From Candidatus Omnitrophota bacterium (GTDB lineage Bacteria; Omnitrophota; Gorgyraeia; Duberdicusellales; 4484-171): 61,796 nucleotides of DNA. Positions 1-46,675 of this stretch are shown here, in pieces. The notes beneath the pieces were generated by a model. It saw only the letters and a program-made list of their open reading frames with translations, was not told the origin of the DNA and did not search any database. The DNA lies in contig PMCS01000015.1 of the NCBI GenBank assembly GCA_003154195.1, positions 1 to 61,796 of the forward strand, written 5' to 3'. Both the position numbers and the translations under genes were made by a program. The stretch's first letter is position 1. Each line of letters opens with the position of its first letter.

Positions 1-3000
1 TGGCAGAAAGCCTATCAAGCCGCGGCTAAAGCCTTTGGTACAACCGATATCAAACTGGATACCTTCAACAAGATATGGATTGCTCCGGATAAGGCTGAGG
101 TATATGAATATAAGAATACGGCGGTAGTCAATCAGGCAACGTTAAAAGCCATGTTAGAACAAGACTTCCTGGCGCTGCAGAAAGGAACGAAGGATGAAGT
201 CCGAGGGACGAAGGATGAAAAAGCAGGACAAATCAACAAGGTGGCTTCGGACGTAATGCGTGAAGTCGTAGTACCTAAAATAACCGAAGATATCAATTCC
301 GGTAAGAACTTTGCTACTCTTCGACAGATCTACTACTCTCTGATCTTAGCTAAATGGTTTAAAGAGAAGTTTAAAGAATCTTTCTATAAACACTATATCA
401 ACCAGAAAAAGATCAAAGGTATCGATACTAATGACCCCCAGGCTAAAGAGAAGATCTATAACCTATATACGCAAGCCTTTAAGAAGGGTATCTATGACTA
501 TATTAAGAAAGAATCCGACCCGGCGACGCATAAACAAGTAAGGCGGAGATACTTTTCCGGAGGAGTAATTTCTAACTTTGAGCCGGGCAGATTTGTGGTA
601 AGCGGCCTAGCCGACAGCTTACCGTTGAATGCTGTGCAAGGAACGAATTTCATCAGCGCGGGGGCAGAACTTGCAACGGGAGCGGCGAATGATAACGCGT
701 TTGCGTTGGCGGCGAGCCCAATGGGCCAAAAAAGGCCCGGGCTTCGGGGTTGGAACACTATGTATGATCGCGTAATGGATAACGGAGGCCCGGGGCTCCG
801 GGGTTTGAATACTGCCTACGATAATAACCGGCGTTATTATGATGGTAACGGAAACCGGACATCACGGCCGGGAACAACCCCGAGCAGCAGGCCATCAAGC
901 AGTGATTCTTCCCGAAGGGGCGGAAGAAGCGGCAGTCCGGTAAGTTACGCGAAAATGTCGGAAGTTATCAAAAGCATTGCTGACCAAGTAACCGGCAAAG
1001 GGAAGTCTGAAAATGTGAAATACGAAGTCGATACAGCTAAAGGAACTGCCGTTATTTCATGGGCTAACGATCATGGTGACGAAGTGGCTTCCTTGACGAT
1101 TGAGAAAGAAGATAGTGGTAAAGGCTGCACGATGACCGTCAGGCAAAAGCACTGGGTAGGCAGCAGGGGGTACTTTTTAGGAGGTACGGACAATATCTAT
1201 CGCACAGCCAAATATGTTTTTGACTATATGGGTACAATATGGCCAGGTGCGATAATCGTCAATGACTGGGGAGTAAATTTTATCGTTGATCCAATGCTGC
1301 ATACACAAATAGAAAAGGATGAAGAGGTTAAGTATCTTGCCTATGGGTATGTAGGTGACGTAGGTAAGCCTGACCCTAACCACGCACTCCTGTTTGTGCC
1401 TGCGGGGAGTCAGAAAGCCAGAGATTTGATCGCGAATGCGCGCCAAAGTGCGGGCAATAAGAAAAAAGGCTTTGTCGAATACGACTTAAGACCGAAGATG
1501 GCCGCCAGCCCGACAGCACCGGTGACGAACCGCAGAATTGCGCCGGGTTTCGAAGAAAGAATAGATACGTTTGCTATCACGATGGGGCTGTTTAATACCG
1601 GAACTAAGTACCGGCCAATTAATTTAGACGGAGCGAAAAATGCTTTCAGGCAATATGCCGAATATGCAGCCGGCGACAGCACGACAACAGGCGTTGCCCG
1701 CTGGGAAGACCGTCATGATACCTATATTTGGGAGTTATCTTTTGAAGTGGATGATAGCAACCCCACCGGTATTCTTGTTACGGCAATGTATCATGACAAA
1801 AGCGGAAAGACCGCGGCAAAGCCTGAGCTAGCGACACGTTTCTGGGTTCTCGATGTGTTTGCCAACCCCAACCCGGTCAGCCCGATTAAGTTGGCAACAT
1901 TTTCGGTTGTATATCCTAAGGCGCGGTCATTTGTTTCCCAGGAAGAAGCGCTCAGAACGATGTTAAAGTCGGCAGGGAAAGATGTAATAAGAATTACTCT
2001 CAGCAATGATAACGGTTTACCCCTAGAAATTGCAGTCCCGGATTTCCGCGCTCAAAAACCGGATTTAATGGAGCAAATCTATGCTAAATATGTCGCGATG
2101 CTCTATGCCCAGGCCGAGGCATTACGGACCGGGCCTTCGCAGCATTTATACGTAGAAGCCCGCAACCGCAAGGGAAACCGCGATGCGGGAACTGAAAGCA
2201 AGATAGTAAGCGCGATTGAAAAATATTTCACGATCACCGGCGACCGCCTATTCGATAAAATCAACAGCGGGAATCCCGTAGAGATATTGAAGAAACCCGA
2301 TGATCTTGTTTTAAAAAGCCCCACAACTCTGGAAGAATGGGTGGCCAAACAATACGCCGGTAAAACAATAACCAGGCGCGAAAACCCGGTTGTAATCGCT
2401 TTGGATATCGGCGGACAGGGGATGAAGCCGTATATCTCGCGCAACGGCAAAGATGTCACTGCCGAGGTCTTAAAAGATTCCGGTAAGGATAGCACAAGAG
2501 ATGAGGACGTTGCCGCGGATAAAACACTTGCCTACCGCTTGTCTTATCCCGCCGGAAATGACCGTTCCGCCGGCAAGGTATTCGGGGATAGAGTGGTAGC
2601 TTATGTCATGGAATTAAGAGCGGCTGCAGAAAAGATGTATGGCCCGGATTCGGTTGTCAGTGTAGCTATCGATAGCGCCGGGACTCCGGATTACGCCAAG
2701 GGGCGGATGACAAGCTTAGGGTCTTTATCCGCAGGCTTTGTTGTGGATAAAGCCCAAGAAATAAGTGACGCCGGCATGTTTATTCCTGAATTAATCAAAC
2801 TTTTGCCTAATGCCGTAGTGCTATTCGGTAACGATATGCAATTGGGTTGGGGTAATGCCCTGATGCATTACGCGCTTGCTTCGCTAAGCGCCGCTGACGC
2901 GGAAAAATTTAAAACCGCTAACATTCTTTTCGACGGCGGCGGCATCGGCACTTGCCTGGTAATAGACGGCAAGGTCGTTATCGGTTTAGACGAGTGCGGA

Positions 3001-9000: not shown

Positions 9001-9168
9001 ACTACTCCCGGCGGTATCAAAATGAGTAACATCCCGGTGATATCTTCAGCGGCGTCGCAGAAGATCGAATTCGCCGCCATCGGCCCGGATTTCTTCGACC
9101 GTTTGACGTTCCGAATTGTTTCGATGAAACACATCGTGTCGTTGGCGCAGTTTGCGTCATTGCCGTGA
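1..9168 (+). CDS. Giant modular protein, 5'-truncated by the window edge (>3050 aa): conserved N-terminal domain, SP-delimited cargo modules (ROK-family kinase domain, two DUF2934-like motifs), conserved PGGI C-terminus
   Basis: Frame is open from base 1 (WQKAYQAAAKAFGTTDIKLD...) and matches the paralog at 37235. ROK motifs VIALDIGG, GND, GGGIGT-LVIDGK, ECGH, VIFGGG at ~2392-3510. DUF2934-like RAHAYEI...ADWIQAEHEL (~6870-6985) and DEHWLAAEEYL (~7790-7820). Confidence 0.9.
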   Translation, partial: WQKAYQAAAKAFGTTDIKLDTFNKIWIAPDKAEVYEYKNTAVVNQATLKAMLEQDFLALQKGTKDEVRGTKDEKAGQINKVASDVMREVVVPKITEDINSGKNFATLRQIYYSLILAKWFKEKFKESFYKHYINQKKIKGIDTNDPQAKEKIYNLYTQAFKKGIYDYIKKESDPATHKQVRRRYFSGGVISNFEPGRFVVSGLADSLPLNAVQGTNFISAGAELATGAANDNAFALAASPMGQKRPGLRGWNTMYDRVMDNGGPGLRGLNTAYDNNRRYYDGNGNRTSRPGTTPSSRPSSSDSSRRGGRSGSPVSYAKMSEVIKSIADQVTGKGKSENVKYEVDTAKGTAVISWANDHGDEVASLTIEKEDSGKGCTMTVRQKHWVGSRGYFLGGTDNIYRTAKYVFDYMGTIWPGAIIVNDWGVNFIVDPMLHTQIEKDEEVKYLAYGYVGDVGKPDPNHALLFVPAGSQKARDLIANARQSAGNKKKGFVEYDLRPKMAASPTAPVTNRRIAPGFEERIDTFAITMGLFNTGTKYRPINLDGAKNAFRQYAEYAAGDSTTTGVARWEDRHDTYIWELSFEVDDSNPTGILVTAMYHDKSGKTAAKPELATRFWVLDVFANPNPVSPIKLATFSVVYPKARSFVSQEEALRTMLKSAGKDVIRITLSNDNGLPLEIAVPDFRAQKPDLMEQIYAKYVAMLYAQAEALRTGPSQHLYVEARNRKGNRDAGTESKIVSAIEKYFTITGDRLFDKINSGNPVEILKKPDDLVLKSPTTLEEWVAKQYAGKTITRRENPVVIALDIGGQGMKPYISRNGKDVTAEVLKDSGKDSTRDEDVAADKTLAYRLSYPAGNDRSAGKVFGDRVVAYVMELRAAAEKMYGPDSVVSVAIDSAGTPDYAKGRMTSLGSLSAGFVVDKAQEISDAGMFIPELIKLLPNAVVLFGNDMQLGWGNALMHYALASLSAADAEKFKTANILFDGGGIGTCLVIDGKVVIGLDECGHLIWDTKTEEAVVTGLNSPIGSYEESGGSERAIMHNAEALGLADMLKKAGFKREVTPKQIGLLATGTNPVTGNPLSDSSDDKRMKELAIKVWDRIARIDAEHIIFMYKLTKVPNVIFGGGTTSGDTGTLRVRLMNKYLKQYRERLGIEEKIEIILSRGKTTAAMGAALKGQEMYEELLAAASPVSAEKVKEIAGILKTRGEVFDSDVETALDKLGKAYRNTFGHNGNKKADISEVSVPIWRLPGITLRRSPRSADVRIVFQEWGSKPSTIGTVVQVFPAAEKKEGKERVQPVTIVRWPGNTLSASSEKINLNARAGSDEESAAARGETKEVSPGILAGTTELVLVDANEKVLGRLRFESIGNGKNEPVVFGLEHWSDSDATKPVGLSEDSETAKKHIVRGSWELFNLQDIGLGKITLSYDSETGEFWIDAKRRSNEYRPVISVREVEKSSSPASSPAKVGMGITNREELSSELMLALPGSWVQGRGHVTEDIYALFPEDKQKIIDRWMDSLEAFARAHAQNADHAQEMIQRGIALIGLNARKEIVEFRSGSGYHVYADTIVGWARNRNRFFDALSHMEKIIGSAAADQRSADRSSLATIQKHIDVLEGKGKANSREDIDAGIKTLADLEGATPQVLRIAYRALFNYGQKILNVRNEFAGAIIAEGSADDRYYSVILMLDRQLGKVQEAFFSVKEKLSSSATISSSPLSAKQLNECITALGYLGNPDARRLARNLLALRDPNNTQGINQGDIGWATKSLTSYRSSLISTLPSTLITQRSYDDELTQNKIVVISNALTNLGRLGNELTARAAANPAAAKERETTAASPARELKARQKLLDDIRAAAREVRGLNSKAATVQHQDPQAVMTFGEVLSGKEAALRRKLSAAGVADSSFIDSKKEADTVAVATAMAGDVTDLRILIDSLTTEAQVRENLNLLEATFSALIPETDVADILLVNERDIETLRTELLRLLTVVEANYGRNGQGEAARITSQPERVVGIEAKDSASASPLDPRQIGKCIDATRSLRNPWASRIIAGLEDMRATGDIGKFSLSDVQWAIKELGATGGPLSSMHTTPGSEAQLITLRREERDAAALNNFRILERELKRSGRGIAGSPLNNSEVARKVAQEVSKALYGSDLDPLHHYIPNGSDALQQIIMRHLQGETLEKEENRRLSDKDWQLDIKFLPTDDGSLVVGYDLKLKITSGWVSVVWGNTKGIALTQTGTAASPIENLPALDSQIKSATEGQGNIGAMKDVVSRLRQTRLFDVLGTQGREENYAAYLGRIGEAAQSRVRAHAYEISQQRHNDQGISPDEETAARADWIQAEHELLQPVSGYLKQAQTAFDSAAQDAAAYIAHAIINLVFRSTGGAEGNLDTTHRLTEEIARSFRDPAGVTFSLQQRAQERAGRRDPGMTVTFSYRDRETGREMNSLLHGFFLTSERLDKSGYTLGDMLTRVEHTRAARELAEFAETRPLINLPNLEARIEKAIEVFNAYQAEPSPAADGIAQIIGGLSLTILAARNKPLLELLRQFHYHYDDRIKGNRIVLTLSGHPTTIVGDRLIPALSEYLRAIPIEIKKTVAATAREFRQNYQGPEATDDEHWLAAEEYLFSRFGSLAGGASSAVEFGQYLEKLLSAGKTRVHFKDTKLGYLKVTGEEIVGDSWMRTVNSAQDLDLTVSLDLGRKMLILQRRPSSSGDVKSVMSGESSRTESPSGTSSASDEEITSQFTQVIRNYWEKHTQKGFPMKNGIEDKKVLWKVNFALRQKGFQPIGLSELDVLQNALAAGGIQMHKVDRSLFKVKRRYYVIYSVKPVSSSPSPATAGSPAVTADDLRDTADRILRNIGMRSMHVHITTVMADVTERLHGAEATRQNVMDAVAAINHRLGEFPGASLYEVSNDGVISLPSDNDPDGRRSLSEEWGRIKTLNYENMPVTAIMQRLTLTPEAVYTALKAISASRDYLSMFFVQNGRIVTEEKNHMTDSRQYPDFNRAEFTQVASSNLGLTTTPGGIKMSNIPVISSAASQKIEFAAIGPDFFDRLTFRIVSMKHIVSLAQFASLP

Positions 9169-9570: not shown

Positions 9571-9703
9571 CCTTACCTTAACCCTAGCCCACCCCGGCAT
9601 CATGGCCCTTGCCCTAGCCAAGTCTTTAGCCCATACCGGCATCCTTACCATTACCCTGACCAAGTTTTTTACCCCTACCCAAACCCGCCGGTTTTGCTAT
9701 AAT
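9571..9703 (+). repeat. Hexamer-rich repeat ending in an extended -10 promoter; a copy follows the second giant gene
   Basis: tagcccataccggcatccttacc...cccctacccaaacccgccggttttgctataat closely matches 46751-46879. Confidence 0.75.
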
Positions 9704-9779
9704 ACATTATTGGCAAGGGTATATTACCCGATGCAAACGTCCCTCCATTATACTTGCTTAAAAAAAGAGAGGTGGAAAA

Positions 9780-10340: not shown

Positions 10341-10487
10341 CCGGAAGAAAGTAGAGGGCGAGACCGCTTGCCGGAGGCGGGCAGGCAGGGATAACAGAGT
10401 AATGAGAAAAAATACGCATTGCGCAGAAGTTCGAAAAACAGCTTAATCCTGGGAAACACCGGAAGCAGGGGATCGGGGATAGGTTCG

Positions 10488-36213: not shown

Positions 36214-36544
36214 GGGACGAGGGATGAAAGATGATGGGCGAAGGATGAGAGAAACGGTAAAGAGTGAAAACATCGGTTGTATTTGTAACGATAGAAGATA
36301 ATGAACCTCCCTGCAGCAAGCTGCAGGGTATCAAATATCTATAAGGTAACCCTGGATAAGGTACAACCCTGCGGCAAGCCGCAGGTAATAAAATCTGGTT
36401 CGCCGTAACCGGCGAAACTTGATTTTATTATGCGGCTAATCGTTTTTCTGCGCCTACGGCTTGAAAAACTCAAGCCTTAGTAATAAAAACCCGTAAAGAC
36501 GGTAAGCAGGATAAAAGAGGATAATTAAAAACGAGGGTGGGACG

Positions 36545-36988
36545 ATGAAAAAAATACTTTTTGCCTTAATTGCTGTAGCCGCTATCGGTCTTTTTTGTTC
36601 TTTTCAACTGCCGTCAGCGAAAGCCGATGAAGCCAGGACATTTATCGGCACGATCAAATCTTTCCGGCCGGTTATGAGCCGTCCGCCCAAGTGGCCATGC
36701 GCGCGGTTTACCGCGGTTTCTGATAGCGGAGAGGAAATAGAGATTTATGTATTAGGCGGCTCCAGTACCTCTCCGACTTCGGCCACGGATTTCGACGGCA
36801 AGCCGATGGATAAACCGGGGTATTGTCACCGTCCCCAGGTAGGCAAAAAAGTAGAAGTCACCTATTCTACCGGAGAACATGAGATTTACGGAGGCCAGCG
36901 CGCGCAGGTGCAATATCCGACGATCACCAACGGCAACATCATCACCAATGGACAGCTGGGGGCGGATTCGATACGGCTGTTGGATTAG
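36545..36988 (+). CDS. Short or truncated paralog of 32119..33195
   Basis: First ~105 aa highly similar to 32119..33195, then divergent. Confidence 0.8.
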   Translation: MKKILFALIAVAAIGLFCSFQLPSAKADEARTFIGTIKSFRPVMSRPPKWPCARFTAVSDSGEEIEIYVLGGSSTSPTSATDFDGKPMDKPGYCHRPQVGKKVEVTYSTGEHEIYGGQRAQVQYPTITNGNIITNGQLGADSIRLLD

Positions 36989-37234: not shown

Positions 37235-40200
37235 ATGCTTTCGTTTCTCGCTCAACCCAAACGCAAACTCTTCTCTAAGTTAACTCTTATACTGGTACTA
37301 TTCTCTTTTTTAGGTACCAGCCTGGGCACCAACTACGCCCACGCCGCTTTAGCCCTCCCTGAGCCTACCCAGTTGCTAGGCCTGTCTCCAAGCTACTCCT
37401 TTCCGATATTAAAGGGATTAAAACTCAACCCGGCTAACCCGCTACAGATAGAATTCATTATCGATAGCGCTAACCAGGATACGGTAAGTAAAGAAGAAGC
37501 ATCAAAACTGATAAGATACTTCTTAGCCGGATTGACTATCCCGGAAGACGATCTCTGGGTAAACCTATCCGTATATGAAAAAGACCATATAATCAATGAA
37601 TCTGCCGCTGCTACCGACGTAGGCCGGGATATGTTAGCCCAGGACTATGTCTTAAAGCAATTAGTCTCCTCTTTGACCTATCCGGAGAGTGAAGTGGGTA
37701 AAAGCTACTGGCAGAAAGCCTATCAAGCCGCGGCCAAGGCCTTTGGTACTACTGATATCAAACTAGATACCTTCAATAAGATATGGATCGCTCCGGATAA
37801 AGCCGAAGTCTATGAATATAAGAATACCGCCGTAGTCAACCAGGCTACTCTTAAGGCAATGCTCGAACAAGACTTTCTCGCATTGCAGAAAGGAACGAAG
37901 GACGAAGTCCGCCAATTTGTAAAACAAATTGGCGAGACCTCGCCATCCGCAGGATGGCGGGAACGAGGGATGAAGGACGAAAAAGCAGGACAAATCAACA
38001 AGGTGGCTTCGGATGTAATGCGTGAAGTCGTAGTACCTAAAATAACCGAAGATATCAATTCCGGCAAGAACTTTGCCACTTTAAGACAGATATACTACTC
38101 TCTGATCTTAGCTAAATGGTTTAAAGAGAAGTTTAAAGAATCCTTCTATAAACACTATATCAACCAGAAGAAGATCAAAGGCATCGATATCCATGACCCT
38201 ACGGCTAAAGAGCAGATCTATAACCTCTATACCCAGGCCTTTAAGAAGGGTATCTATGACTATATAAAAAAAGAAGTTGTACCGGTTGAGCCGGTTATGC
38301 CGGTTGCAGGGTTAAAATCTTCTAACGGACTCAACCGGCCTAACAGTTTTAAAACCGTTAGACGTAGGTACTTCTCCGGAGGAATAAACTTTCTGATCGG
38401 AGTTGTCTCCTCAGTCGTACCCTCGGCCACGTTTGATGCGACCCAGAGAATGGGTAAGTTTAACGCCGTGGGGACGCTTTTGACCAATGAGGTAGCTAAT
38501 GATAACTCGATAGGGGTGGCGGGAAGCCCGGCGGGGATGGAAACCGATGGACGAGGAATGAGGGATGAAGGAAGAGGGGAAGATACCGTAGGACGTGAGG
38601 ACGTGGGACGTGGGACGAAAGGAGCAAGCGCCAGTCCGGCTTCCGCCAGCCCCGTTAAGGATTTTGACGTTTTCTTAGGAGTTATCTTAAACGATGAAAG
38701 CCTCCAGCACGCGCATCCCGCGATTTACCAAAAAATTAAAGCCCGGGGCTCGGCAAACAAAGTAAGAGGAGATATCGTCAAGGAGTTGGATCTTATCAGA
38801 ACCCAATTAGGTGATGCGCAGGGGCCGGTGGATTTAGAGGCATTGCACCAATATTTGCTCGCTAAGGCCCAGGATTTTCGCGACAAAGGTGATTATAAAT
38901 CCGAGGCGATAGCCTATTTCCATGCGTTAAGAGTGTTGGCCGGGCCGATAAGCTCGTTGACTGAATTGATGGTGCACGACATTGCGTCCAAAGACCATTA
39001 CTCTTCTGTCCAGAAGTCATTGTTAGACGCGATATCCCGGTCGTACCGGGCTATCCCCCAGCATGAGATAGATTATTTTAATACTTTATGGAAATCCCGG
39101 AATACATCAATCCGGGAGCTATGGCAGTGGGTACAGAGAAACACCATTGTCGGGTGTTTAGATTATGTGGTTGACAGCGGCGATGGTTTCTGGGCAGGCC
39201 GCAGCCGCTGGGATAAGATTGACCAATCCTGTAAGTTTTTTGAAGCTTTGGAATCTCACCGGACGGGAGAAAGCAATGACCATTGGTATGATTATCTAAA
39301 CAGCAGAAGAGCGGCGGGAGAGGAGCCGTTGGATAGAGAACTATTAGAAGCAATGCAGGAAGGATACGACCGGATAGAGCAGGGAGGAAAAGACGAGACA
39401 ATAAAAAAAATAATATTCTTATCCAACCTTACTATGGATTATCCCAAGATTCTTTTAGGTAATGATGACGCCAGCGTAAGGCCGGTGCTGTGGCCTTTTT
39501 ACAAAATGCTTCCGATTGAAAAGGAAGATACGGAGCTGCTGCTTGTTCTTGCCGAAGAACACCGTGATTACCGGACCCTGGGGCTTGGCGATAGCCGCGG
39601 CCCCGAGGCATTTGTTAAAAAGCTTTCAGTTGAACCTCCCCAGCAGGAAGAAGAACGGCTGCCCGAGCCGGCTTACGACGCGCCGGCGGCAGCTAAATTA
39701 AAAGAAGCATTCAACGGAAACGGCGCGGATGTCGCAGGAAAATTAGAGGCGTTATACCAAAGCGGAGATTTAGCCAGAGCGATATCTTATCTTGCCCTGC
39801 TGGACCGGCCCAAGACAAAAGGGGTCACTATTTTACAGCATTGCGTACAAGTCGTCCGGTGGATGGCCGCAGTCGATGAGGGCGATTTTGCCGGATTCTC
39901 TGCTTTGAGAAAAGGTAAACCTTACATCCCTGAAAGTCACTTCCGCAGTTTAAGCCGGGCGTTGCGCCAGGCGCGGGATTATATCGCCGGATTATACGAC
40001 GAGCAAACGGCGAATCGGCTTATCTACCTGGCCGCGTTTATGCATGATATCGGGGATATCTTCAATTACGGCGACCACACCACCAGGGGAGCGGCGATGA
40101 TCGAGCCTGTGCTGGCGATCCTGGGCATTAATGACCGGCGCATTGCCAACTGGTTCCGGTTTATCATCAGGTACCATTCTGAATTCGGCGGTATGAATAT

Positions 40201-43200
40201 CGCGGAAAAGACCAACGCCCCGATTTTAGAGGCGCTGAAACAGGAATTTGATTTGCAAAGCGCGGGAGAAGCGGCCGAGGCGGATATGCTTTTGAAACTT
40301 ACGGTAGCAATCAATTCCGCGGACGTTATGTCTTATCAGGACGGAGTATTTTTTACCGCAGACGACGCCGAGCTAATGGCGGGTTACTTAAGCCTGGAGA
40401 AACTGGTAAGGTTCGACGCCGCAGAGTTCCGCCGGTTAAGATACGCCTGCAACGAGCGTGGAGTAGTAAACGAATTCAGGCTTGATGTTTTAGGCAAGAC
40501 AATGCGATTACTGCAGAAGCGTTACCGGGGATTCGCGCCGTTTCTGGGGTCAGCTGAAATGGGCCATTCTAAGGAAATATTTGCTAATCTTTCCGAGACC
40601 GACGTCGGGAGATTATTGAGGCTATCCTATATTATATCCCGCGCGCCGGGCCAAAACGCCGAAGCTCGCACTTTTGATTTTACCGCTTCCCGCCGGCTGG
40701 CCCCGTTAAGTTTCCAGCCGCTTCATGAAAGGCTGGCCGAGGTAGATTTTGAAAGATTAGCCGAGCTTCCCATTCATGATGCCGTCCGCTATCTGACCGA
40801 AATGGGATTGATTACCTATCTGAGCGGCGATGAAGGGACGGTGTATTACAATAATAAGTATTTAACCCATATTATACGTTATTTCAGCGCCGCGGCGATA
40901 AATACCCTGGCTTATTACGCTTCGCGCGGCGTCGGCACGCTTACCGACGACCATCTGGGCAACTTTTTAGTTATGTATAATTTGTCCGAAATCCACCGCT
41001 TAAGGATGTTTGCAAAGCACTGGCCGGTAATCCGTTTGTTATATGCCCTTTTAAACGGCGTGGTCAGAGGCGAAAAGATGTTTAATTTAAAGAGCATGGC
41101 GCCTAAGTTTGAAAACAGGAACGAAGAGCCTAAGGACCTGCTCTTAAGTATTGCCCGGGATTTAATCACGGAAGACCAGCAATACAGCCGCCAGCATCAG
41201 GAGGTTTATGACGCGCTTCGCGAGATCGACCAAGCCGGCCATATGCAGATTCTGATCGATTGGTTGAGCCGCGCCAATACGGTACGCTTGAACTATACCG
41301 CCCGCTGGGTTGATTTTGGGGCGGCGGGGTTTGTAAAATTTATTTATACCCTGGCTCTTTTATGGAGTAGAAGAACCGCCCAGGAAAAAGACAGGCCATA
41401 TTTATTTGCCGGAAAGTATATCGGAAAGCTGGAGAGAGAAAAAGTCGCGATTGTGGCTAAGACAGTGCCGGATATCGCAGGGCAATTCCAGAAACTTTGC
41501 GCGGGAGATATTTCCGAAGCAAAGTTCATCAGCGAAACTTTTGGTTTAACTGCCGAGGGATATTACGAAGATGCCGAAAAGACGATTGTTACTTTAACCC
41601 AGGCGGCGGCCGCGGCGAGCCCGATGGAAATGAAAACCGAAAGACGAGGGATGAAGGATGAAGGACGAAAAGATGATATTGCCGCGGAACGCGGGACGAA
41701 GGCGGGGAGCCCGGCAATTCCCGGGAACGCGCCAAGAATTCCCGTGACGTTTATTGCTTCTTCCGATCCTTATACGGTGAAGGGTGAAATTATAGTGCCC
41801 GAGGACGCGAAAAATGGTAAAGCAAAAATCTGCATACTGTCGATGGGCATGTTCATAGCATTATGGTCGAATATCTGGATTGAAAACGGCCGGATGATGC
41901 AAATAACCAATAGTGCTCAAACTAATGGGCTTACGCATAGCATTGCTTATGATGCCGTCAGGGATGTGTTGACAGTCGAAGCGCGTAACCTCAGCAATAC
42001 CCGTCAATTAGAGGCGTATCTTATCTCCGCCGCCAGCCCGGCCGAAGGCAAGACGAAAGTCGGATTGGTTTCAAGCGCGGTACCTCAAAGGATTCGGCGT
42101 CATGTAATAAAAAAGAAGGACGGCGTCGATCCTGAATATCTCGCAGGAATAAATGCCAAAGAAAAAAAGACGATAGTCATATACGGCGGGCTGGGTTCGT
42201 TAGGCGAGAGATTTCTGGGGCCCGGCATCCGCGAGCTGAACGATACATTTAACGTAGATTTCATCGCGGTGGACACCAAAGATCCTTCCCGGGAAGCCGA
42301 CAGGCGTTTTATAAAAAAACGTAAACAAGTGCTTAAAGATGCGGGTTTGCCGGTTAGCGCTTATTTTTCTATCGGAAATTTTGGTAAAGCGCTGGATAAG
42401 GCACGGGGAACGATTCGCATAAAAGGAAGAGATATTAAAGTCGACGGAGTTATCACTGCGGTACCTACTAAGTATCACCTCAAGTACGCGCAAACATGGG
42501 TCAGGAGAAACATACCGGTATGGATGGAAAAACCCATTACGATGGTTGACGAAATTCCCGGTTTAAAACGACTGAATACCCAGCATCCCGGAAAAATATT
42601 CGCGGTAGATTTTTTTATGGACAGCGATGCGTTGATGTCGGTCTTAAAAGATAAAGATATTTTAGGCGGCATAGGAAAAATTAAGCGTATCGACGGCCGC
42701 TGCGTTGAGACATGGGGGGTTGAGCGCGAACCCAGGAAGTGGCTCCTTGATCCCGCGATAAGCGGAGGCGGATTGATGATAGACACTGCGGTCCACCCCC
42801 TCGCGATGATCGAGTCGGTCTTAACAACAAAAGGGATGACGCTTGGGCAAGCGGAGGTTGAGGATTGCCGGCTTGCCCGGTATGTAAATAACCCTGCCGA
42901 TAAGATTGTTCCCAGCCAAACCGAGACGTATGGTTGGATTAAAGGGCGAGTAGGCGATATTGAATTTTATGTAGACAGCGGTAAAGGTGTAGGCCGGGTA
43001 TATTATGGAATCACCATAACCGGCGACAAGGGAAGCGTAGAGGTATTTGTAGGAACAGAAACCCTGGATCCTTATATTAAGGTAACGCATAAAGACAGCA
43101 GCGTCGATATGTATCGTTTTTCAAAAGGAAGCCTGGGGTATAAGAGGACATTTTTGGATTTCATGTTATTCTTGCACGGTTCTAAGAAACACGACGGAGT

Positions 43201-46200
43201 TGGGCTGGATACACGTATGTCGGCGGCCATGCATAGCTTAGAAGTGGTTGGCAAGGCATATAAAAAGTCCGAGGGGATAGGAACATATTTGCTAGGGAAT
43301 GATCCTACGGTACCGACTGAAGTTCAAGGAATGCCGTTTAAAGGGCTTCGTCCCAAAGGTAAGGCACTTTGGGGTAACGGTGAAGTTCTAACTAAATCGA
43401 AAAGTACTGTTGGTTCCAGCCCGGCAAGTGCGGAAAGACCGAGGGATGAAGTCCGCCAATTTACAAAACAAATTGGCGAGACCTCGCCATCCACCGGATG
43501 GCGGGGACGAGGGATGAGGGATGAAGGACGAAATGACGATACTGCCGTGGGCCGTGGAACGTCCGCGGCTTCGCCGCTGGGACGTGGGAAGAGGGAAAAA
43601 GGTAGTGCCAGCCCCTTGTGGTGGAATCTGCGCAAGCTAAAAAGCTATAAACTGGAGACACGAATTGAGGCAGCCAACCAGTTAGCCCTTCGTGGCGGCC
43701 GAGATATAATGGATATATTATTTGCAGCCTATCGCGGTGAACGGTCCTCTGGTGTCAGGAGTGCGATCATTAGAGCCCTTAAGCACAACAACAATTACGC
43801 AGGCCCTATGCTTGTCGACGCTCTCAGGGGCAGCGATCCGGATATCCGCGTTTCTGCCGTTATGGTTCTTGGGGAAATGAGAGACTCATCGTATGAAGAC
43901 GCCGTCTATGCCGCTTTTTCTAATACCAATCCCGTAGCAGTATATAACGCGCTTGTTAATATTAATGGGAAAATGCGAAGATCTGTCGAAGATATCTACG
44001 CTGAATTAAAAAGACAAGACGGTGATTTTAGTTTATTGCCCGAAGCCATTCGATTAGCGGCAGCAGGGTATGGATTCAAAGTTGAGGTAAAACGGGAAGT
44101 TGTGATTGACAAGGTAGGCCATGAAGGTGTAGTCGATGAGCAGATTAAGTCTTTTCCTACTGATAATAATGATAATGTTCAGGAGTATTTAGATCAAGGT
44201 TATCGTATAACAGATATTTCGGCGGATGGTTCATACATAGGATCGGGCAGCGCCGTTGGGTATTATTTTTATTTGGAAAAAAGAGGTTTGGTGTATAATT
44301 CGCCAACCGAGAAGGTTACTCGCACGCTTGTCCCTGTGAAAATTGGTTCCAGCCCGACATCAACCGCTATGAAGACAGCAGGGTCGCCGGTATCTTTGCC
44401 GATCGGCCTTTTAGATAAGACGATTGAGATTTTTAGCCAAGCCGATACCGAAAAATTAGATACGATAAAAGATTCTTTTAACTCTTTTGCCGACGGCCTT
44501 CTGCGTAGTTATAAACCTGAACCGGATGAGGCTGACTTGGCCAGAATAAAGCAGTTAACCGAGCATACCGTAGAATTTTTAAAAGCGATGAAATCAAGGG
44601 ACACCCGGATAAGAGGAGTAAAAGAAAAGTTGCTTCCAATCATCGGGTTGTTGCACGATATCGGTAAGGTAATTACTTATGTCGGCCATGAAGAGTCAGG
44701 GGTAAAGGTTTTAACCGACCATAATATTATCGGCCAATTGGTAGACAGTGGTTACATAAGTAAAGACGAAGGAGCGTTGGTTGAGACCGCGGTGCGCTAC
44801 CATACCTTTGTCGGCTTAAACTGGATTGGTGAAAAAGGTTATGTGACGTGGAAGGAATTTTTTGAAGACAGCGCGGTAGCAGCGTGGCGCGCCGGTAACG
44901 ATTTATCCACTTTACTTGAGCTCATCGCAAAAATGGGCATATTTGATCTTCTGGCCTATAAAAATTCCCTGCAGTCGTCGAGGGAAAAAGGATACATTGA
45001 TTTGGCCGAAACAGTAGCCGCTGCGGTTTCCCGCGGCGGAAACTTGGAAGAAAATCTTGCCGCTTTAGACCGGGAAAAATCCCCCGAGCGCGTTGAGCAC
45101 CTGATTTCCTGGAGAGATAATAATATGGATAGTTCTCGGCGCGTCGGTTATATGGGCGAATGGGGAAAAGCGGCAGAAGCCGTCCAGGCCCAGGAAGCGT
45201 TTATGAAAATTTTAGAAACCGTTACCGGCCACAGAGATATCCAGTCATTTATCAATGAAGCTTTAGGGAAAGAGGCAAATATTGAGCGATTCGGCGTTAT
45301 ATTTCCGGCACTGGCCTGGTCCGATGCTGCCGCCGCCGGGAGCGAAGAAGATTTCGCGAAGACTTTATATTTCTGGCAGGAAATAACGGCAGGACATTCC
45401 GTTAACCCCGGCGCGGTTAAATTCCTGGCTCTCTTGTTGCTGGCCGGTCGTATTTTTCCCGGGCATTCAAGCATTGTCACGCTCGGCAAGGACAATGTAG
45501 AAATAGCCAAATTGATAGGCAAACCGGGATTTTCCCGCTATCTTTATGCTTTAAACCAGGCAATGGCTTCTTTGACGGGGATAAAAGTATCGGAAGATAA
45601 GATTACTTTGCTGGGGGAAGGCGGCGCGCCACTCGGCTCATTTATGCAATTCGACCAAAGCAAAGGAACTATAACATTTTTTGCCGAACCGGCCGACGCT
45701 TCCAGCCCCGCTTTTCTGGATGATAACGCTAAAGCAGCGGGACGGAAAGCTTCGCTTTCCAGCCCGCTGGAACAGGGAAAGGTTGTCGATATTCCCAGCC
45801 GTCAAAACAGTAATTGGGTCTGGTTTCCCATGACTGAGCCGGAAAGGGCAGATTTTAAAGCAGGGAGAAAAGTTTTGCATATTTACGGTGAAAACAGCAA
45901 TGAGGCCCTGGCAGTAGTGCGTTATTTTTTGCCCGGAGAGCCGGACCCCCGGGCGCAAAAAATAAAAGTTGAGGCGCCAAAGGCCTCCGTAACCGGTCAA
46001 AATCCGTGGGAGGTAAATATCCAAAAAACGGGTTTAGTGGCCAAGATAATAGTTTCCTATGACCCTTCCGGGGAAAGAATACTGGTTAAGGGAAAAAATT
46101 TTGATTTGCGAGGAATCCCTAAACCATTCCATATGATGTTAGCCACACCAAGGGAGGGAGATGCCGGCCTGGTAGCAAAAGGGTTGGCAGGTGTCAGGTT

Positions 46201-46675
46201 GGCGTCACGGGACGCCGGCACTTATTCTCATGACTACGCGGCAGGGAAGATAATCACTCCTCGCTCCGGATATAGGGTACCGGTGGAGAAAGGTAGGCCT
46301 ATTTTATCCCAGGTTAAGAGCATCGCGGCTGCGCTTAACAATGTCCCTGAGGAGCAGATTGAAGTTGACTTCATATCGCGCGATAAAGAGAACAGTATCA
46401 GGGGGTTTCGCGTAACGATTTTACCACCGGCCGGGGGAATCGCGGGGAACGGAGCTGCGGGAAGCGGAACGAATGCTAATCCCCGTTCCTCATCTTCCGT
46501 TAATGCAGATGCGCCCGGCGGTATCAAAATGTCCAACATCCCGGTGATATCTTCGGCGGCGTCGCAGAAGATTGAATTCGCGGCGATCGGCCCGGACTTT
46601 TTCGATAGACTAACATTTCGGATCGTTTCGATGAGACACATTGCATCGTTGGCGCAGTTTGCGTCGATACCATAA
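37235..46675 (+). CDS. Giant modular protein (~3150 aa): signal peptide, conserved N-terminal domain, SP-delimited cargo (two HD domains, Gfo/Idh/MocA oxidoreductase, HEAT repeats), conserved PGGI C-terminus
   Basis: GGAGG at 37226; signal peptide ending AHA|A. LAAFMHDIGD (~40030) and GLLHDIGK (~44650). IVIYGGLGSLG..AVPTKYH..MEKP..GGGLMIDTAVH (~42160-43300). HEAT-like DPDIRVSAVMVLG (~43830). Confidence 0.92.
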   Translation: MLSFLAQPKRKLFSKLTLILVLFSFLGTSLGTNYAHAALALPEPTQLLGLSPSYSFPILKGLKLNPANPLQIEFIIDSANQDTVSKEEASKLIRYFLAGLTIPEDDLWVNLSVYEKDHIINESAAATDVGRDMLAQDYVLKQLVSSLTYPESEVGKSYWQKAYQAAAKAFGTTDIKLDTFNKIWIAPDKAEVYEYKNTAVVNQATLKAMLEQDFLALQKGTKDEVRQFVKQIGETSPSAGWRERGMKDEKAGQINKVASDVMREVVVPKITEDINSGKNFATLRQIYYSLILAKWFKEKFKESFYKHYINQKKIKGIDIHDPTAKEQIYNLYTQAFKKGIYDYIKKEVVPVEPVMPVAGLKSSNGLNRPNSFKTVRRRYFSGGINFLIGVVSSVVPSATFDATQRMGKFNAVGTLLTNEVANDNSIGVAGSPAGMETDGRGMRDEGRGEDTVGREDVGRGTKGASASPASASPVKDFDVFLGVILNDESLQHAHPAIYQKIKARGSANKVRGDIVKELDLIRTQLGDAQGPVDLEALHQYLLAKAQDFRDKGDYKSEAIAYFHALRVLAGPISSLTELMVHDIASKDHYSSVQKSLLDAISRSYRAIPQHEIDYFNTLWKSRNTSIRELWQWVQRNTIVGCLDYVVDSGDGFWAGRSRWDKIDQSCKFFEALESHRTGESNDHWYDYLNSRRAAGEEPLDRELLEAMQEGYDRIEQGGKDETIKKIIFLSNLTMDYPKILLGNDDASVRPVLWPFYKMLPIEKEDTELLLVLAEEHRDYRTLGLGDSRGPEAFVKKLSVEPPQQEEERLPEPAYDAPAAAKLKEAFNGNGADVAGKLEALYQSGDLARAISYLALLDRPKTKGVTILQHCVQVVRWMAAVDEGDFAGFSALRKGKPYIPESHFRSLSRALRQARDYIAGLYDEQTANRLIYLAAFMHDIGDIFNYGDHTTRGAAMIEPVLAILGINDRRIANWFRFIIRYHSEFGGMNIAEKTNAPILEALKQEFDLQSAGEAAEADMLLKLTVAINSADVMSYQDGVFFTADDAELMAGYLSLEKLVRFDAAEFRRLRYACNERGVVNEFRLDVLGKTMRLLQKRYRGFAPFLGSAEMGHSKEIFANLSETDVGRLLRLSYIISRAPGQNAEARTFDFTASRRLAPLSFQPLHERLAEVDFERLAELPIHDAVRYLTEMGLITYLSGDEGTVYYNNKYLTHIIRYFSAAAINTLAYYASRGVGTLTDDHLGNFLVMYNLSEIHRLRMFAKHWPVIRLLYALLNGVVRGEKMFNLKSMAPKFENRNEEPKDLLLSIARDLITEDQQYSRQHQEVYDALREIDQAGHMQILIDWLSRANTVRLNYTARWVDFGAAGFVKFIYTLALLWSRRTAQEKDRPYLFAGKYIGKLEREKVAIVAKTVPDIAGQFQKLCAGDISEAKFISETFGLTAEGYYEDAEKTIVTLTQAAAAASPMEMKTERRGMKDEGRKDDIAAERGTKAGSPAIPGNAPRIPVTFIASSDPYTVKGEIIVPEDAKNGKAKICILSMGMFIALWSNIWIENGRMMQITNSAQTNGLTHSIAYDAVRDVLTVEARNLSNTRQLEAYLISAASPAEGKTKVGLVSSAVPQRIRRHVIKKKDGVDPEYLAGINAKEKKTIVIYGGLGSLGERFLGPGIRELNDTFNVDFIAVDTKDPSREADRRFIKKRKQVLKDAGLPVSAYFSIGNFGKALDKARGTIRIKGRDIKVDGVITAVPTKYHLKYAQTWVRRNIPVWMEKPITMVDEIPGLKRLNTQHPGKIFAVDFFMDSDALMSVLKDKDILGGIGKIKRIDGRCVETWGVEREPRKWLLDPAISGGGLMIDTAVHPLAMIESVLTTKGMTLGQAEVEDCRLARYVNNPADKIVPSQTETYGWIKGRVGDIEFYVDSGKGVGRVYYGITITGDKGSVEVFVGTETLDPYIKVTHKDSSVDMYRFSKGSLGYKRTFLDFMLFLHGSKKHDGVGLDTRMSAAMHSLEVVGKAYKKSEGIGTYLLGNDPTVPTEVQGMPFKGLRPKGKALWGNGEVLTKSKSTVGSSPASAERPRDEVRQFTKQIGETSPSTGWRGRGMRDEGRNDDTAVGRGTSAASPLGRGKREKGSASPLWWNLRKLKSYKLETRIEAANQLALRGGRDIMDILFAAYRGERSSGVRSAIIRALKHNNNYAGPMLVDALRGSDPDIRVSAVMVLGEMRDSSYEDAVYAAFSNTNPVAVYNALVNINGKMRRSVEDIYAELKRQDGDFSLLPEAIRLAAAGYGFKVEVKREVVIDKVGHEGVVDEQIKSFPTDNNDNVQEYLDQGYRITDISADGSYIGSGSAVGYYFYLEKRGLVYNSPTEKVTRTLVPVKIGSSPTSTAMKTAGSPVSLPIGLLDKTIEIFSQADTEKLDTIKDSFNSFADGLLRSYKPEPDEADLARIKQLTEHTVEFLKAMKSRDTRIRGVKEKLLPIIGLLHDIGKVITYVGHEESGVKVLTDHNIIGQLVDSGYISKDEGALVETAVRYHTFVGLNWIGEKGYVTWKEFFEDSAVAAWRAGNDLSTLLELIAKMGIFDLLAYKNSLQSSREKGYIDLAETVAAAVSRGGNLEENLAALDREKSPERVEHLISWRDNNMDSSRRVGYMGEWGKAAEAVQAQEAFMKILETVTGHRDIQSFINEALGKEANIERFGVIFPALAWSDAAAAGSEEDFAKTLYFWQEITAGHSVNPGAVKFLALLLLAGRIFPGHSSIVTLGKDNVEIAKLIGKPGFSRYLYALNQAMASLTGIKVSEDKITLLGEGGAPLGSFMQFDQSKGTITFFAEPADASSPAFLDDNAKAAGRKASLSSPLEQGKVVDIPSRQNSNWVWFPMTEPERADFKAGRKVLHIYGENSNEALAVVRYFLPGEPDPRAQKIKVEAPKASVTGQNPWEVNIQKTGLVAKIIVSYDPSGERILVKGKNFDLRGIPKPFHMMLATPREGDAGLVAKGLAGVRLASRDAGTYSHDYAAGKIITPRSGYRVPVEKGRPILSQVKSIAAALNNVPEEQIEVDFISRDKENSIRGFRVTILPPAGGIAGNGAAGSGTNANPRSSSSVNADAPGGIKMSNIPVISSAASQKIEFAAIGPDFFDRLTFRIVSMRHIASLAQFASIP

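What the first reader, a model, noticed from the sequence alone, without database searches (positions are those of the whole stretch)
1..46675. Polymorphic giant 'cargo-train' proteins: fixed N- and C-termini around interchangeable SP-delimited modules
Seen: the giant ORFs (<1..9168 and 37235..46675) are nearly identical up to RRRYFSGG (to 564 / 38383) and in the last 162 nt (9007-9168 / 46514-46675). The ~2700 aa between are largely different. That middle is cut into modules by about 24 copies of [A/S/G]-[A/S/G]-S-P. In gene 1 these are at 709, 928, 1501, 3538, 4345/4357, 5107, 5467, 6016, 6334, 6673 and 8431-8466. In gene 2 they are at 38519, 38627-38653, 41612, 41702, 42029, 43412, 43565, 43604, 44345, 44378, 45698 and 45755. 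Recognisable domains (ROK kinase, HD, Gfo/Idh/MocA, HEAT) lie between motifs and never across one. Gene 2 starts with a signal peptide, yet this cargo is typically cytoplasmic. Established: giant multi-domain proteins are known in Ca. Omnitrophota. Inference: an exported polyprotein, with a constant carrier domain and a constant sorting tail, delivers a variable set of effectors that are released by cleavage at the SP motif.
Basis: partly seen in the sequence, partly recalled or inferred. Interest (0 to 1): 0.92.

Follow-up and report, generated by a model that had tools for sequence, protein, structure and literature searches.

The report
Omnitrophota modular enzyme-train protein family
The two 3,000-residue genes belong to a large family of exported bacterial proteins that string whole enzymes between a fixed head and a fixed tail, with a short marker at the joints that may be a cutting site.

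Summary
Genes 1 and 2 are two of 24 paralogs, which make up 5.8% of this 2.48-Mb genome. The family is restricted to part of one Omnitrophota class. Every member has four parts: a Sec-type signal peptide, a ~330-aa N-domain with a confident model but no known fold, a variable string of modules, and a 55-70-aa "GGI" tail.

The [A/S/G][A/S/G]SP motif is 15-19 times enriched. It is selected at the protein level, not the DNA level, and it lies in linkers between modules that each match a whole stand-alone protein.

Two results are new.
- Other genomes use D-x-A-M, or A-S-S-S/A, at the same junctions instead of xxSP, and a protein does not mix the xxSP and DxAM types.
- A complex model docks the invariant GGI tail into a pocket of invariant N-domain residues (ipSAE 0.75; best control 0.00). 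The tail therefore looks like a plug for the head rather than a sorting signal.

Cleavage at the motif is the best reading of a lineage-specific junction motif, but it is untested and no protease was found. Cargo delivery as "effectors" is speculation. The motifs offer concrete candidate sites for the published but unresolved idea that giant Omnitrophota proteins are cut into pieces.

The parts
1..9168 (+). Gene 1, family member cut at its 5' end by the contig start (3055 aa read)
   Evidence: The contig begins inside the conserved N-domain. Contigs C26 (both ends) and C31 also end in N-domain sequence.
1..564 (+). Gene 1: C-terminal 188 aa of the conserved N-domain, ending RRRYFSGG
709..8466 (+). 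Gene 1: 13 strict [ASG][ASG]SP junction motifs (first bases 709, 928, 1501, 3538, 4345, 4357, 5107, 5467, 6016, 6334, 6673, 8431, 8455)
   Evidence: one search gives the aa positions, converted here to nt.
9007..9165 (+). Gene 1: conserved C-terminal GGI tail (53 aa)
37235..46675 (+). Gene 2, complete family member (3146 aa from ATG 37235; the ORF is open from 37028)
   Evidence: P0003. An independent peat metagenome run tiles all 30 bins with identical contigs, and two RNA libraries cover 18 and 22 of 30 bins.
37235..37345 (+). Gene 2: Sec-type signal peptide (basic n-region, hydrophobic core, AHA|A site read by eye)
   Evidence: for the sequence and for the heuristic. No signal-peptide predictor was run.
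37346..38383 (+). Gene 2: conserved N-domain; the model is confident and no similar known fold was found
   Evidence: AF2 pLDDT 86.3, pTM 0.85. Foldseek best E 0.05. VIA-align best Z 4.4 of 48,161 chains. Invariant residues are listed.
37910..37963 (+). 54-nt double-hairpin dispersed element inserted in frame in the gene 2 N-domain; the site is empty in gene 1 (about nt 206)
   Evidence: (D10). RNA fold -36.2 kcal/mol, z -7.07.
38519..45709 (+). Gene 2: 12 strict [ASG][ASG]SP junction motifs (first bases 38519, 38627, 38642, 41612, 41702, 42029, 43412, 43565, 43604, 44345, 44378, 45698)
   Evidence: one search gives the aa positions, converted here to nt.
42083..43372 (+). Gene 2: GFO/IDH/MocA-like oxidoreductase module, the size of a whole stand-alone protein, lying between two motifs
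   Evidence: Pfam. Stand-alone 410-505-aa homologs align almost end to end. AF2 pLDDT is 79-98 over query residues 171-600.
43434..43525 (+). Second in-frame copy of the palindromic element with purine-rich arms, inside a long linker of gene 2
   Evidence: (D10)
43805..43951 (+). Gene 2: HEAT-repeat module (Pfam core); helices start 13 aa after a SASP motif
44564..44809 (+). Gene 2: HD phosphohydrolase domain
46514..46672 (+). Gene 2: conserved C-terminal GGI tail (53 aa)
   Evidence: It is predicted to dock into the N-domain.

Best explanation
Genes 1 and 2 belong to a large paralogous family confined to part of one Omnitrophota class.

Shown here: each member has four parts.
1. A Sec-type signal peptide.
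2. A ~330-aa N-domain whose model matches no solved fold.
3. A variable string of modules. Those with recognisable relatives each match a whole stand-alone protein: enzymes, HEAT or ankyrin repeats, regulators.
4. A 55-70-aa tail that starts with an invariant G-G-I.

Shown here: many junctions, usually including head-to-cargo and often cargo-to-tail, carry a short motif kept by selection on the protein. The motif is genome-specific: [A/S][A/S]SP in this genome, D-x-A-M or A-S-S-S/A in others.

Inferred, step 1 (about 60%): the tail plugs into a pocket of the N-domain. The docking could be within one chain, closing a loop, or between chains, coupling members head to tail.

Inferred, step 2 (about 45%): the junction motif is the recognition site of a trans-acting factor that co-evolves with it. 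The most likely factor is an endoprotease that cuts the exported chain into whole enzymes, which would make this a bacterial polyprotein.

Where the cargo acts (periplasm, cell surface or a host/prey cell) is not known.
For: Family. 24 paralogs total 48,142 aa, 5.8% of the genome, and all carry a GGI(K/D) tail. The 13 longest ORFs of the genome are all members. Homolog clusters number 412, 208 and 895 in three overlapping length bands. Nearly all sources that name an organism say Omnitrophota or Omnitrophica. 15 of 151 sampled genomes of the phylum have the family, all in one class.

The motif is real.
- 138 in the family against 100 in 650,612 aa of background.
- The logo is sharp, [AS][AS]SP[AVL].
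- The Ser is coded by AGY 81 times and by TCN 57 times, so the constraint is on the protein and not the DNA.

The motif lies at junctions.
- Of 43 homology blocks inside the middles, 6 cross a motif against 21.1+-3.4 expected (0 of 1000 shuffles as low).
- 16 of the 43 start within -5 to +25 aa after a motif, against 4.5+-2.3 expected.
- 0 of 21 motifs fall in the Pfam stretches of P0073, P0115 and P0011 (joint chance 7.6e-5).
- Multi-domain enzymes (PGM I-IV, PPDK, enolase N+C) are not split.
- Projected native termini lie 1-20 aa from a motif in 8 of 12 cases.
- In gene 2, stand-alone homologs span the GFO-like module between two motifs. Five HEAT homologs align from their residue 2 to the residue just after SASP.
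- In the AF2 model all 8 motifs lie in stretches of low confidence (block means 29-50), and none lies in the confident domain at 171-600.

Lineage switch.
- DAAM is 19.7x and DKAM 14x enriched in other homologs.
- The two types exclude each other within a protein.
- G139: 11 of 11 proteins carry DxAM (2-8 each; 48 DxAM, 5 xxSP in all; in one, L021, xxSP also reaches 3). G129: 9 of 9 carry DxAM and none carries xxSP (35 DxAM, 0 xxSP). G000: 138 xxSP, 7 DxAM.
- G079 is enriched 11-17x for ASSS, SSSS and SSAI.
- On the N-domain tree, motif type needs only 3 changes against a shuffled mean of 16 (0 of 500 shuffles as low). G000 paralogs sit on both sides of the deepest split yet are all xxSP.

Head-tail docking. 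ipSAE was 0.75, 0.74 and 0.79, and the best of 3 controls was 0.00. That mark was reached by 58 of 80 solved complexes and 2 of 110 mismatched pairs. Runs agree in at least 67% of contacts. Partner pLDDT is 49-53. Contacts run between tail G24-G25-I26 and F57-I59 and N-domain W82, V83, N84, D111, L114, K115, K156 and W158, which are the invariant columns of both alignments.

Exported, extra-copy cargo. 20 of 20 complete N-termini look like signal peptides. Only 3 internal hydrophobic segments occur in 24 proteins. The genome has free-standing enolase, TIM, PGK, GAPDH, PPDK, PGI and PGM, so family enzymes are additional copies.
Against: No proteolysis data exist, and no candidate protease was found.
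- The N-domain has no invariant His or Cys and no match to any solved fold.
- No gene family recurs next to more than 3 of the 24 loci, and the two that recur at 3 loci are not proteases.

Not every junction carries a motif.
- Paralog C18 has none.
- Segments between motifs reach 1,781 aa.
- 4 of 12 projected termini lie 188-441 aa from the nearest motif.
- 6 of 43 homology blocks cross a motif, mostly within about 15 aa of a block end.
- 79 of 116 homologs carry fewer than 3 motifs of either type.

A motif 1-7 aa from a fold's first residue could be a helix cap or hinge rather than a protease site.

The HSPs in the shuffle test are not independent.

In the complex model the tail's own fold is uncertain (pLDDT about 50), and my own alignments were used, so the calibration holds only roughly.

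Low pLDDT where the alignment has no rows (query 1-170) says nothing about disorder.
Confidence: 0.5

Rival explanations
1. The proteins are uncleaved 'beads on a string'. They act as intact exported or anchored multi-enzyme scaffolds. The motif is only a preferred linker, hinge or helix N-cap that drifts between lineages.
For: Motifs lie 1-20 aa from projected native termini, and S-P and D-x-x are common helix caps (recalled). No protease was found. Many junctions lack a motif. General cap-like tripeptides (TPE, NPE, SPE) are about 2-3x enriched in the middles.
Against: Enrichment is 15-19x for xxSP and 100-200x for DAAM within single genomes, far above that of generic caps. The types exclude each other by protein, and the genomes sampled each favour one type. 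Paralogs that diverged before the deepest split of the tree share one type within a genome. Flanks are not low-complexity. A passive linker has no evident reason to keep a fixed 4-5-aa word.
Confidence: 0.3
2. The motif is a post-translational modification or chaperone site, for example O-glycosylation or phosphorylation of the Ser, or binding by a prolyl isomerase. It marks linkers of exported chains.
For: xxSP and A-S-S-S/A are Ser-rich. The proteins are exported. West-Roberts et al. report a conserved rotamase gene near giant genes (passage seen).
Against: The D-x-A-M variant has no hydroxyl and no proline, yet it occupies the same junctions. The two membrane-protein paralogs next to gene 1 have no Pfam match, so no glycosyltransferase is shown.
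Confidence: 0.1
3. The motif is a DNA-level scar or recombination site left by cassette insertion, and selection does not act on the peptide.
For: Modules are shuffled between paralogs. Some long linkers of gene 2 contain a dispersed palindromic element and purine-rich repeats that also occur between genes.
Against: The motif Ser uses both unrelated codon families (AGY 81, TCN 57), and Ala and Pro codons vary. The DNA word is therefore not conserved while the peptide is. The dispersed element accounts for only two linkers or loops in gene 2.
Confidence: 0.04
4. The giant ORFs are assembly chimeras of a repeat-rich metagenome bin.
For: Four contig ends fall inside N-domain repeats. Contig graphs of public runs jump between repeated linkers (joints with 22-30-nt sides).
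Against: An independent peat run tiles gene 2 in 30 of 30 bins with contigs of 0 differences. 13 further DNA runs hold 60% or more of its words. The same architecture occurs in 14 other genomes, some on contigs over 1 Mb.
Confidence: 0.02

Closest known systems
Giant multi-enzyme proteins of Omnitrophota: 'Archaeovorins' (West-Roberts et al. 2023, bioRxiv 10.1101/2023.11.21.568195) and 'multi-enzyme metabolic clusters' (Nielsen & Lui 2026, bioRxiv 10.64898/2026.06.07.730766)
   Same: Same phylum. Signal peptides are present, and many cytoplasmic-type enzyme domains sit in one chain: HEAT, PGM, ROK, HD, glycolytic enzymes and PPDK. Cleavage into pieces has been proposed, but 'information about cleavage points' is lacking.
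   Different: Those proteins are 10-147 kaa with tens to hundreds of TM helices, SecA-like and C39/S8 domains. The proteins here are 0.5-5 kaa with one N-terminal hydrophobic segment and no such Pfam hits. In the sections and passages I read I saw no mention of the conserved N-domain, the GGI tail or junction motifs. Supplements were closed and may list these proteins.
MARTX toxins (recalled, not tested against sequences)
   Same: Large exported proteins whose conserved N- and C-terminal regions flank a strain-variable array of effector domains. Those domains are released by cutting in inter-domain linkers, and the repertoire is shuffled by recombination.
   Different: MARTX ends are glycine-rich repeats. 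Export is by type I secretion without a signal peptide. An internal cysteine protease domain does the cutting, after Leu. None of these features is present here, and there is no homology.
Cellulosome cohesin-dockerin coupling (recalled)
   Same: A short C-terminal plug on enzyme-bearing proteins docks into a socket domain, assembling many different enzymes outside the cell.
   Different: No dockerin or cohesin Pfam hit was found. Here socket and plug sit on the same chain. The fold of the socket matched nothing solved.
Gingipain/adhesin polyproteins with a conserved C-terminal domain in Porphyromonas (recalled)
   Same: A signal peptide, a multi-domain exported precursor cut at defined residues between domains, and a conserved C-terminal element.
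   Different: That tail is a T9SS sorting domain of Bacteroidota and the cuts are at Arg/Lys by the cargo's own protease. No NCBIfam sorting-domain hit was found here, and the cargo differs.

Membership tests
Unnamed Omnitrophota head-cargo-tail family (defined here) | Conserved ~330-aa N-domain ending in R-(R/K)-Y-F-S-G-G | tested here: met
   Gene 2 has the full domain. Gene 1 has the last 188 aa because it is cut by the contig end. 22 of 24 paralogs match by BLASTP, and the other 2 are cut at the 5' end.
Unnamed Omnitrophota head-cargo-tail family (defined here) | C-terminal tail with invariant G-G-I and a distal F-x-I strand | tested here: met
   Both genes carry it. Of the 24 paralogs, 22 were aligned, and G24, G25, I26, F57 and I59 are invariant in all 22.
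Unnamed Omnitrophota head-cargo-tail family (defined here) | N-terminal Sec-type signal peptide | tested here: met
   20 of 20 complete paralogs pass a heuristic. Gene 1 cannot be judged because it is cut. No dedicated predictor was run.
Unnamed Omnitrophota head-cargo-tail family (defined here) | Genome-specific short motif at module junctions | tested here: met
MARTX toxins | Glycine-rich repeat regions at both ends | tested here: not met
   No Pfam or NCBIfam hit in either end at E<=0.01 and E<=0.1. The ends are a folded domain and a 53-aa tail.
MARTX toxins | Internal inositol-phosphate-activated cysteine protease domain | tested here: not met
   No peptidase Pfam hit in P0001 or P0002.
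MARTX toxins | Type I secretion, no N-terminal signal peptide | tested here: not met
   A signal-peptide-like N-terminus is present.
Archaeovorin-type giant Omnitrophota proteins | Length of tens of thousands of aa with numerous TM regions and SecA DEAD-like domains (as described in the passages read) | tested here: not met
   Lengths are 3055+ and 3146 aa. There is no SecA hit. Gene 1 and gene 2 have no internal hydrophobic segment of 19 aa or more at KD>=1.8 (crude scan).
Dockerin/cohesin modules | Pfam dockerin or cohesin domain | tested here: not met
   No hit.
Known C-terminal sorting signals (T9SS CTD, PEP-CTERM and the like) | Match to an NCBIfam or Pfam sorting-domain model | tested here: inconclusive
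   No hit for P0001, P0002 or P0186 at E<=0.1. Short signals can escape HMMs.
Protease (N-domain as autoprocessing enzyme) | Protease fold or invariant catalytic residues | tested here: inconclusive
   Best Foldseek E 0.05 and best VIA Z 4.4. No invariant His or Cys. Invariant S86, K115, K156 and D111 exist, so a Ser/Lys type cannot be excluded.

The most novel reading that the evidence does not exclude
A bacterial 'coupled polyprotein' system. Exported chains of whole enzymes carry a socket at the head and a plug at the tail, and these join members into loops or head-to-tail trains. A protease that co-evolves with a genome-specific junction word (xxSP, DxAM or ASSS) then cuts the chains into native-sized enzymes. 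The enzymes act outside the producer's cytoplasm, possibly inside a host or prey cell of these epibiotic bacteria.
Probability: 0.2. Interest if true: 0.9.

Novelty: new variant of a known kind. Interest (0 to 1): 0.78.

Why it matters
Two preprints on Omnitrophota giant proteins ask whether these chains work whole or are cut. One of them states that cleavage points are unknown.

This family offers a tractable model of 0.5-5 kaa, with three concrete features.
- Explicit candidate sites that can be looked for in existing metaproteomes.
- A natural control: the same junctions carry a different motif in sister genomes.
- A predicted head-tail contact defined to single residues.

If the sites are cut, this would be a cellular polyprotein strategy that consumes about 6% of a small genome. 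If they are not cut, the family is still an undescribed way of stringing and coupling extra copies of core enzymes outside the cytoplasm.

The junction motifs also give a rule for dividing such proteins into foldable units for structure prediction.

Tried and rejected
The N-domain alone was then searched, but that mode reached only 642-2000 aa. Whether proteins above 5.6 kaa carry this head therefore remains open.
- The N-domain gave no useful match in Foldseek PDB, VIA-align wide or the ESM Atlas, which returned only Omnitrophota hypotheticals.
- NCBIfam gave no sorting or head/tail model.
- PDB sequence search gave nothing for gene 1 and only designed HEAT-like repeat proteins for gene 2.
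- Pfam on the ten motif-delimited pieces of gene 1 gave only the sub-threshold ROK hit and chance-level rows.
- Rfam found nothing in the window.
- Clustering of genes within 6 kb of the 24 loci found no neighbour shared by more than 3 loci.
- A mixed GFO+HEAT alignment (A4) placed the HEAT rows on the wrong region. It was replaced by A5.
- Contig 'joints' between repeated linkers in public runs have sides of 22-30 nt. I read them as repeat cross-links, not as deletions.
- RNA-library contigs cover parts of gene 2, but contigs cannot show transcript ends, and DNA carry-over is not excluded.
- Literature searches that returned nothing: 'Velamenicoccus archaeovorus' + 'glycolytic'; 'Omnitrophica' + 'fusion proteins' + 'glycolysis'; 'Omnitrophota' + 'polyprotein'.
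- 'Omnitrophota' + 'multi-enzyme' returned only the two preprints cited and one unrelated paper.
- I considered the M of D-x-A-M as an internal start codon. I set this aside because this genome's variant has no Met.
Full report
**The observation**

The window is a whole 61.8-kb contig (C33) of a 2.48-Mb, 34-contig genome. Gene 1 (1..9168) is open at the contig start. Gene 2 is open from 37028 and most likely starts at ATG 37235.

BLASTP of the two products finds only two significant blocks.
- The N-terminal region: 198/285 identities, interrupted by two indels.
- The last 53 residues: 50/53 identities.

The ~2,700 residues between these blocks show no similarity (all other HSPs have E>1). DNA repeats confirm the same ends.

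**A family, not a pair**

tblastn and BLASTP in the genome find 24 members of 1,098-3,236 aa. Together they make up 48,142 aa, or 5.8% of the genome. The 13 longest ORFs of the genome are all members.

Every member ends in a tail that begins G-G-I-(K/D) and has a distal F-x-I strand. Thirteen share the close 'GGIKMS' form seen in the window. Four contig ends, including the start of this window, fall inside the conserved N-domain, so the repeats break the assembly.

All 20 members with an intact 5' end have a basic n-region, a hydrophobic core and a small-x-small site (my heuristic). A crude hydropathy scan finds only three further hydrophobic segments in all 24 proteins, and none in the two window genes.

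**Range**

Homolog searches return 412 clusters of 1,748-5,564 aa, 208 of 201-641 aa and 895 of 642-2,000 aa; the bands overlap. Where a source names an organism it is Omnitrophota or Omnitrophica, with two exceptions (one 'Phycisphaerales bacterium' and one unclassified 'bacterium'). Short complete members exist with a head, one small module and a tail, about 510-630 aa long.

In a sample of 151 genomes of the phylum, 15 (including this one) have the head. All 15 are in the same class, with up to 44 candidate copies per genome.

Cargo Pfam families in homologs are overwhelmingly cytoplasmic in type:
- glycolysis and sugar-phosphate enzymes: enolase, PGK, TIM, aldolases, PFK, GAPDH, PGI, PGM, PPDK;
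- hydrolases and transferases: NUDIX, HD, GNAT, methyltransferases;
- kinases and response regulators;
- HEAT and ankyrin repeats.

This genome also has ordinary free-standing enolase, TIM, PGK, GAPDH, PPDK, PGI and PGM genes. Enzymes carried by the family are therefore extra copies.

**The motif**

[ASG][ASG]SP occurs 138 times in the family, or 2.87 per 1000 aa. The other 1,806 ORFs have 0.15 per 1000, and composition predicts 0.19. No non-family ORF has more than two.

The logo is sharp, [AS][AS]SP followed by A, V or L, and the flanks are only mildly rich in small residues. The Ser is coded 81 times by AGY and 57 times by TCN. These two codon families differ at two or more of their three positions, so what is kept is the peptide and not a DNA word.

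**Position at junctions**

Homology blocks. Of 43 blocks that lie wholly inside the variable middles, 6 cross a motif. Random placement of the same number of motifs gives 21.1+-3.4 (0 of 1000 shuffles as low). Sixteen blocks start within -5 to +25 aa after a motif, against 4.5+-2.3 expected. Block ends show no significant excess: 7 against 4.5, p 0.19. The blocks are not independent of each other. The same modules occur at different places and in different orders in different paralogs.

Pfam domains. In three homologs of the xxSP type that carry well-known enzymes, none of 21 motifs lies inside a Pfam stretch (joint chance 7.6e-5). Multi-domain enzymes are bracketed as wholes. Projected native termini lie 1-20 aa from a motif in 8 of 12 cases and 188-441 aa away in 4.

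Gene 2. A search of 1.8 billion representatives shows stand-alone proteins of 410-505 aa aligning almost end to end with the piece between AASP and GSSP. Five stand-alone HEAT proteins align from their residue 2 to the residue right after SASP.

AF2 model. A model of gene 2 residues 1480-2420 places a confident domain (pLDDT 79-98) at query 171-600. All 8 motifs of the stretch lie in low-confidence regions (block means 29-50), and five of them flank that domain. For the first 170 residues the alignment had no rows, so low confidence there is uninformative.

**Other genomes use another motif**

In homologs outside this lineage xxSP is rare. Instead D-A-A-M and D-K-A-M are 19.7 and 14 times enriched in the middles. 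The two types exclude each other within a protein. For example, P0037 has 11 DxAM and 0 xxSP, while P0016 has 2 (by the looser pattern) and 11.

D-x-A-M also sits right after the head and right before the tail. Its M lies close to the first residue of the following module: 7 aa before a response-regulator profile start.

By genome:

| Genome | Proteins fetched or counted | DxAM | xxSP |
|---|---|---|---|
| G139 | 11 | 48 | 5 |
| G129 | 9 | 35 | 0 |
| G000 (this genome) | 24 | 7 | 138 |

All 11 G139 and all 9 G129 proteins carry DxAM; one G139 protein (L021) also has 3 xxSP. G079 and G057 have neither type but are enriched 11-17 times for A-S-S-S, S-S-S-S and S-S-A-I. A genome of the same family as this one but another genus has only three members and no xxSP enrichment.

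On a FastTree of 132 N-domains the motif type needs three changes, against a shuffled mean of 16 (0 of 500 shuffles as low). This genome's paralogs lie on both sides of the deepest, well-supported split yet all use xxSP. I left out of that tree the four 5'-truncated paralogs, the six database copies of this genome's own proteins, and homologs in which the head's end motif was not found.

**Head and tail**

With 60 short homologs as alignment, AF2 gives the N-domain a confident model (pLDDT 86.3, pTM 0.85). Foldseek against the PDB finds nothing with E<=0.001, the best being 0.05. VIA-align against 48,161 representative chains finds nothing with Z>=5, the best being 4.4.

No His or Cys is invariant. 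The invariant polar residues are N84, S86, T101, D111, K115, K156, R258 and Q259.

The score was 0.75, 0.74 and 0.79, and the best of three controls was 0.00. That mark was reached by 58 of 80 solved complexes and 2 of 110 mismatched pairs. Contact agreement was at least 67% and partner pLDDT was 49-53. The calibration holds only roughly because my own alignments were used.

The confident contacts join the tail's invariant G-G-I and F-x-I to the head's invariant W82, V83, N84, D111, L114, K115, K156 and W158. The model supports binding but does not show it. It cannot tell a closed loop from head-to-tail chains.

**Reading**

Shown: the architecture, the protein-level junction motif and its genome-specific variants.

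Inferred:
- The tail is a plug for the head.
- The junction motif is read by a trans-acting factor that changes with the lineage.

A protease is the simplest such factor, because it fits variants with and without Ser or Pro and would release native-sized proteins. I found no protease and no conserved neighbour gene. Many junctions lack a motif. I put cleavage at about 45%. The main rival is an uncleaved scaffold in which the motif is a hinge or cap. A DNA-level origin is contradicted by codon use. An assembly artefact is contradicted by independent runs and by 14 other genomes.

**Literature**

I read the abstract and sections 8, 9 and 21 of Nielsen & Lui 2026. I read the abstract and found passages of West-Roberts et al. 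2023, and found passages of Seymour et al. 2023, PMC10066038.

These papers describe Omnitrophota proteins of 10-147 kaa with signal peptides, many TM helices and multi-enzyme content. They propose cleavage and state that cleavage points are unknown. I saw no mention of this head, tail or motif. Kizina et al. 2022 on Velamenicoccus, and the MARTX, cellulosome, gingipain and Rickettsia-element comparisons, are recalled and were not read here.

**Surroundings**

Between the two genes lie the following:
- three secreted ankyrin-repeat proteins;
- two paralogous membrane proteins without a Pfam match;
- TypA/BipA, a Bax-inhibitor-like protein and RhuM;
- lipoprotein-like ORFs and a DUF4136+PDZ protein.

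Downstream of gene 2 are an S51 peptidase, two CARDB proteins (one of 1,722 aa), a flavodoxin, a nucleotidyltransferase and a MiaB-like radical-SAM enzyme. None recurs at other family loci.

Noticed in passing
window 37910-37963 and about 43455-43508 (in frame in gene 2); 23284-23375 (intergenic); empty site in gene 1 near nt 206: A 54-nt dispersed element of two strong hairpins (-36.2 kcal/mol, z -7.07), flanked by purine-rich GGATGAAGGA-type repeats. It sits in frame inside coding sequence: a loop of the gene 2 N-domain, a gene 2 linker, and the N-domain of paralog C5. It also occurs between genes elsewhere. There are 9 core copies in the genome and no Rfam match. It resembles the in-frame palindromic elements of Rickettsia (recalled).
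   Followed up: partly
window 38546-38586, 41642-41679, 43505-43542 and intergenic 35091-35185, 36219-36249, 60601-60641: Purine-rich repeats code the R-G-M-(R/K)-D-E-G-R stretches of the long gene 2 linkers and also occur outside genes. 12 of 36 genome copies lie in family genes, which are 5.8% of the genome. They could be recombination substrates for module shuffling.
   Followed up: partly
window 9780-10340, 30309-31274, 35206-36213 (+): Three ankyrin-repeat proteins with signal-peptide-like N-termini, two of them flanking the giant genes. Ankyrin repeats also occur as cargo in some family homologs (P0076, P0448, P0485).
   Followed up: partly
window 10419-12056 and 12321-13781 (+): Tandem paralogs (about 80-82% nt identity) that encode multi-pass membrane proteins with no Pfam match.
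   Followed up: no
window 32119-33195 and 36545-36988 (+); 16211-16326 vs 36286-36497; 9666-9704 vs 46842-46880: Further duplicated pieces in the window. There is a secreted protein with internal repeats plus a shorter copy just upstream of gene 2. A 46+67-nt intergenic pair is 87-93% identical. A 39-nt TATAAT-bearing word (95% identical) lies downstream of both giant genes.
   Followed up: no
contig ends: window 1; C26 both ends; C31 start: The assembly breaks inside the conserved N-domain. The missing 5' end of gene 1 may be one of the N-terminal fragments at the ends of C26 or C31.
   Followed up: no
window 37949/38553/41670 joined to 43505-43573 in contigs of public runs: Contigs of one DNA run and two RNA-library runs jump between the repeated linkers of gene 2, with sides of 22-30 nt. 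These are probably repeat cross-links or other paralogs, but real deletion variants between linkers are not excluded.
   Followed up: no
window 48312-48962 (+): A peptidase family S51 gene lies 1.6 kb downstream of gene 2. S51 enzymes are dipeptidases (recalled), so it is not an obvious processing protease.
   Followed up: no
window 52969-58137 (+): A 1,722-aa protein with CARDB, PKD and CarboxypepD_reg domains, next to a 492-aa CARDB protein. It is a different kind of large surface protein and carries only one xxSP.
   Followed up: no
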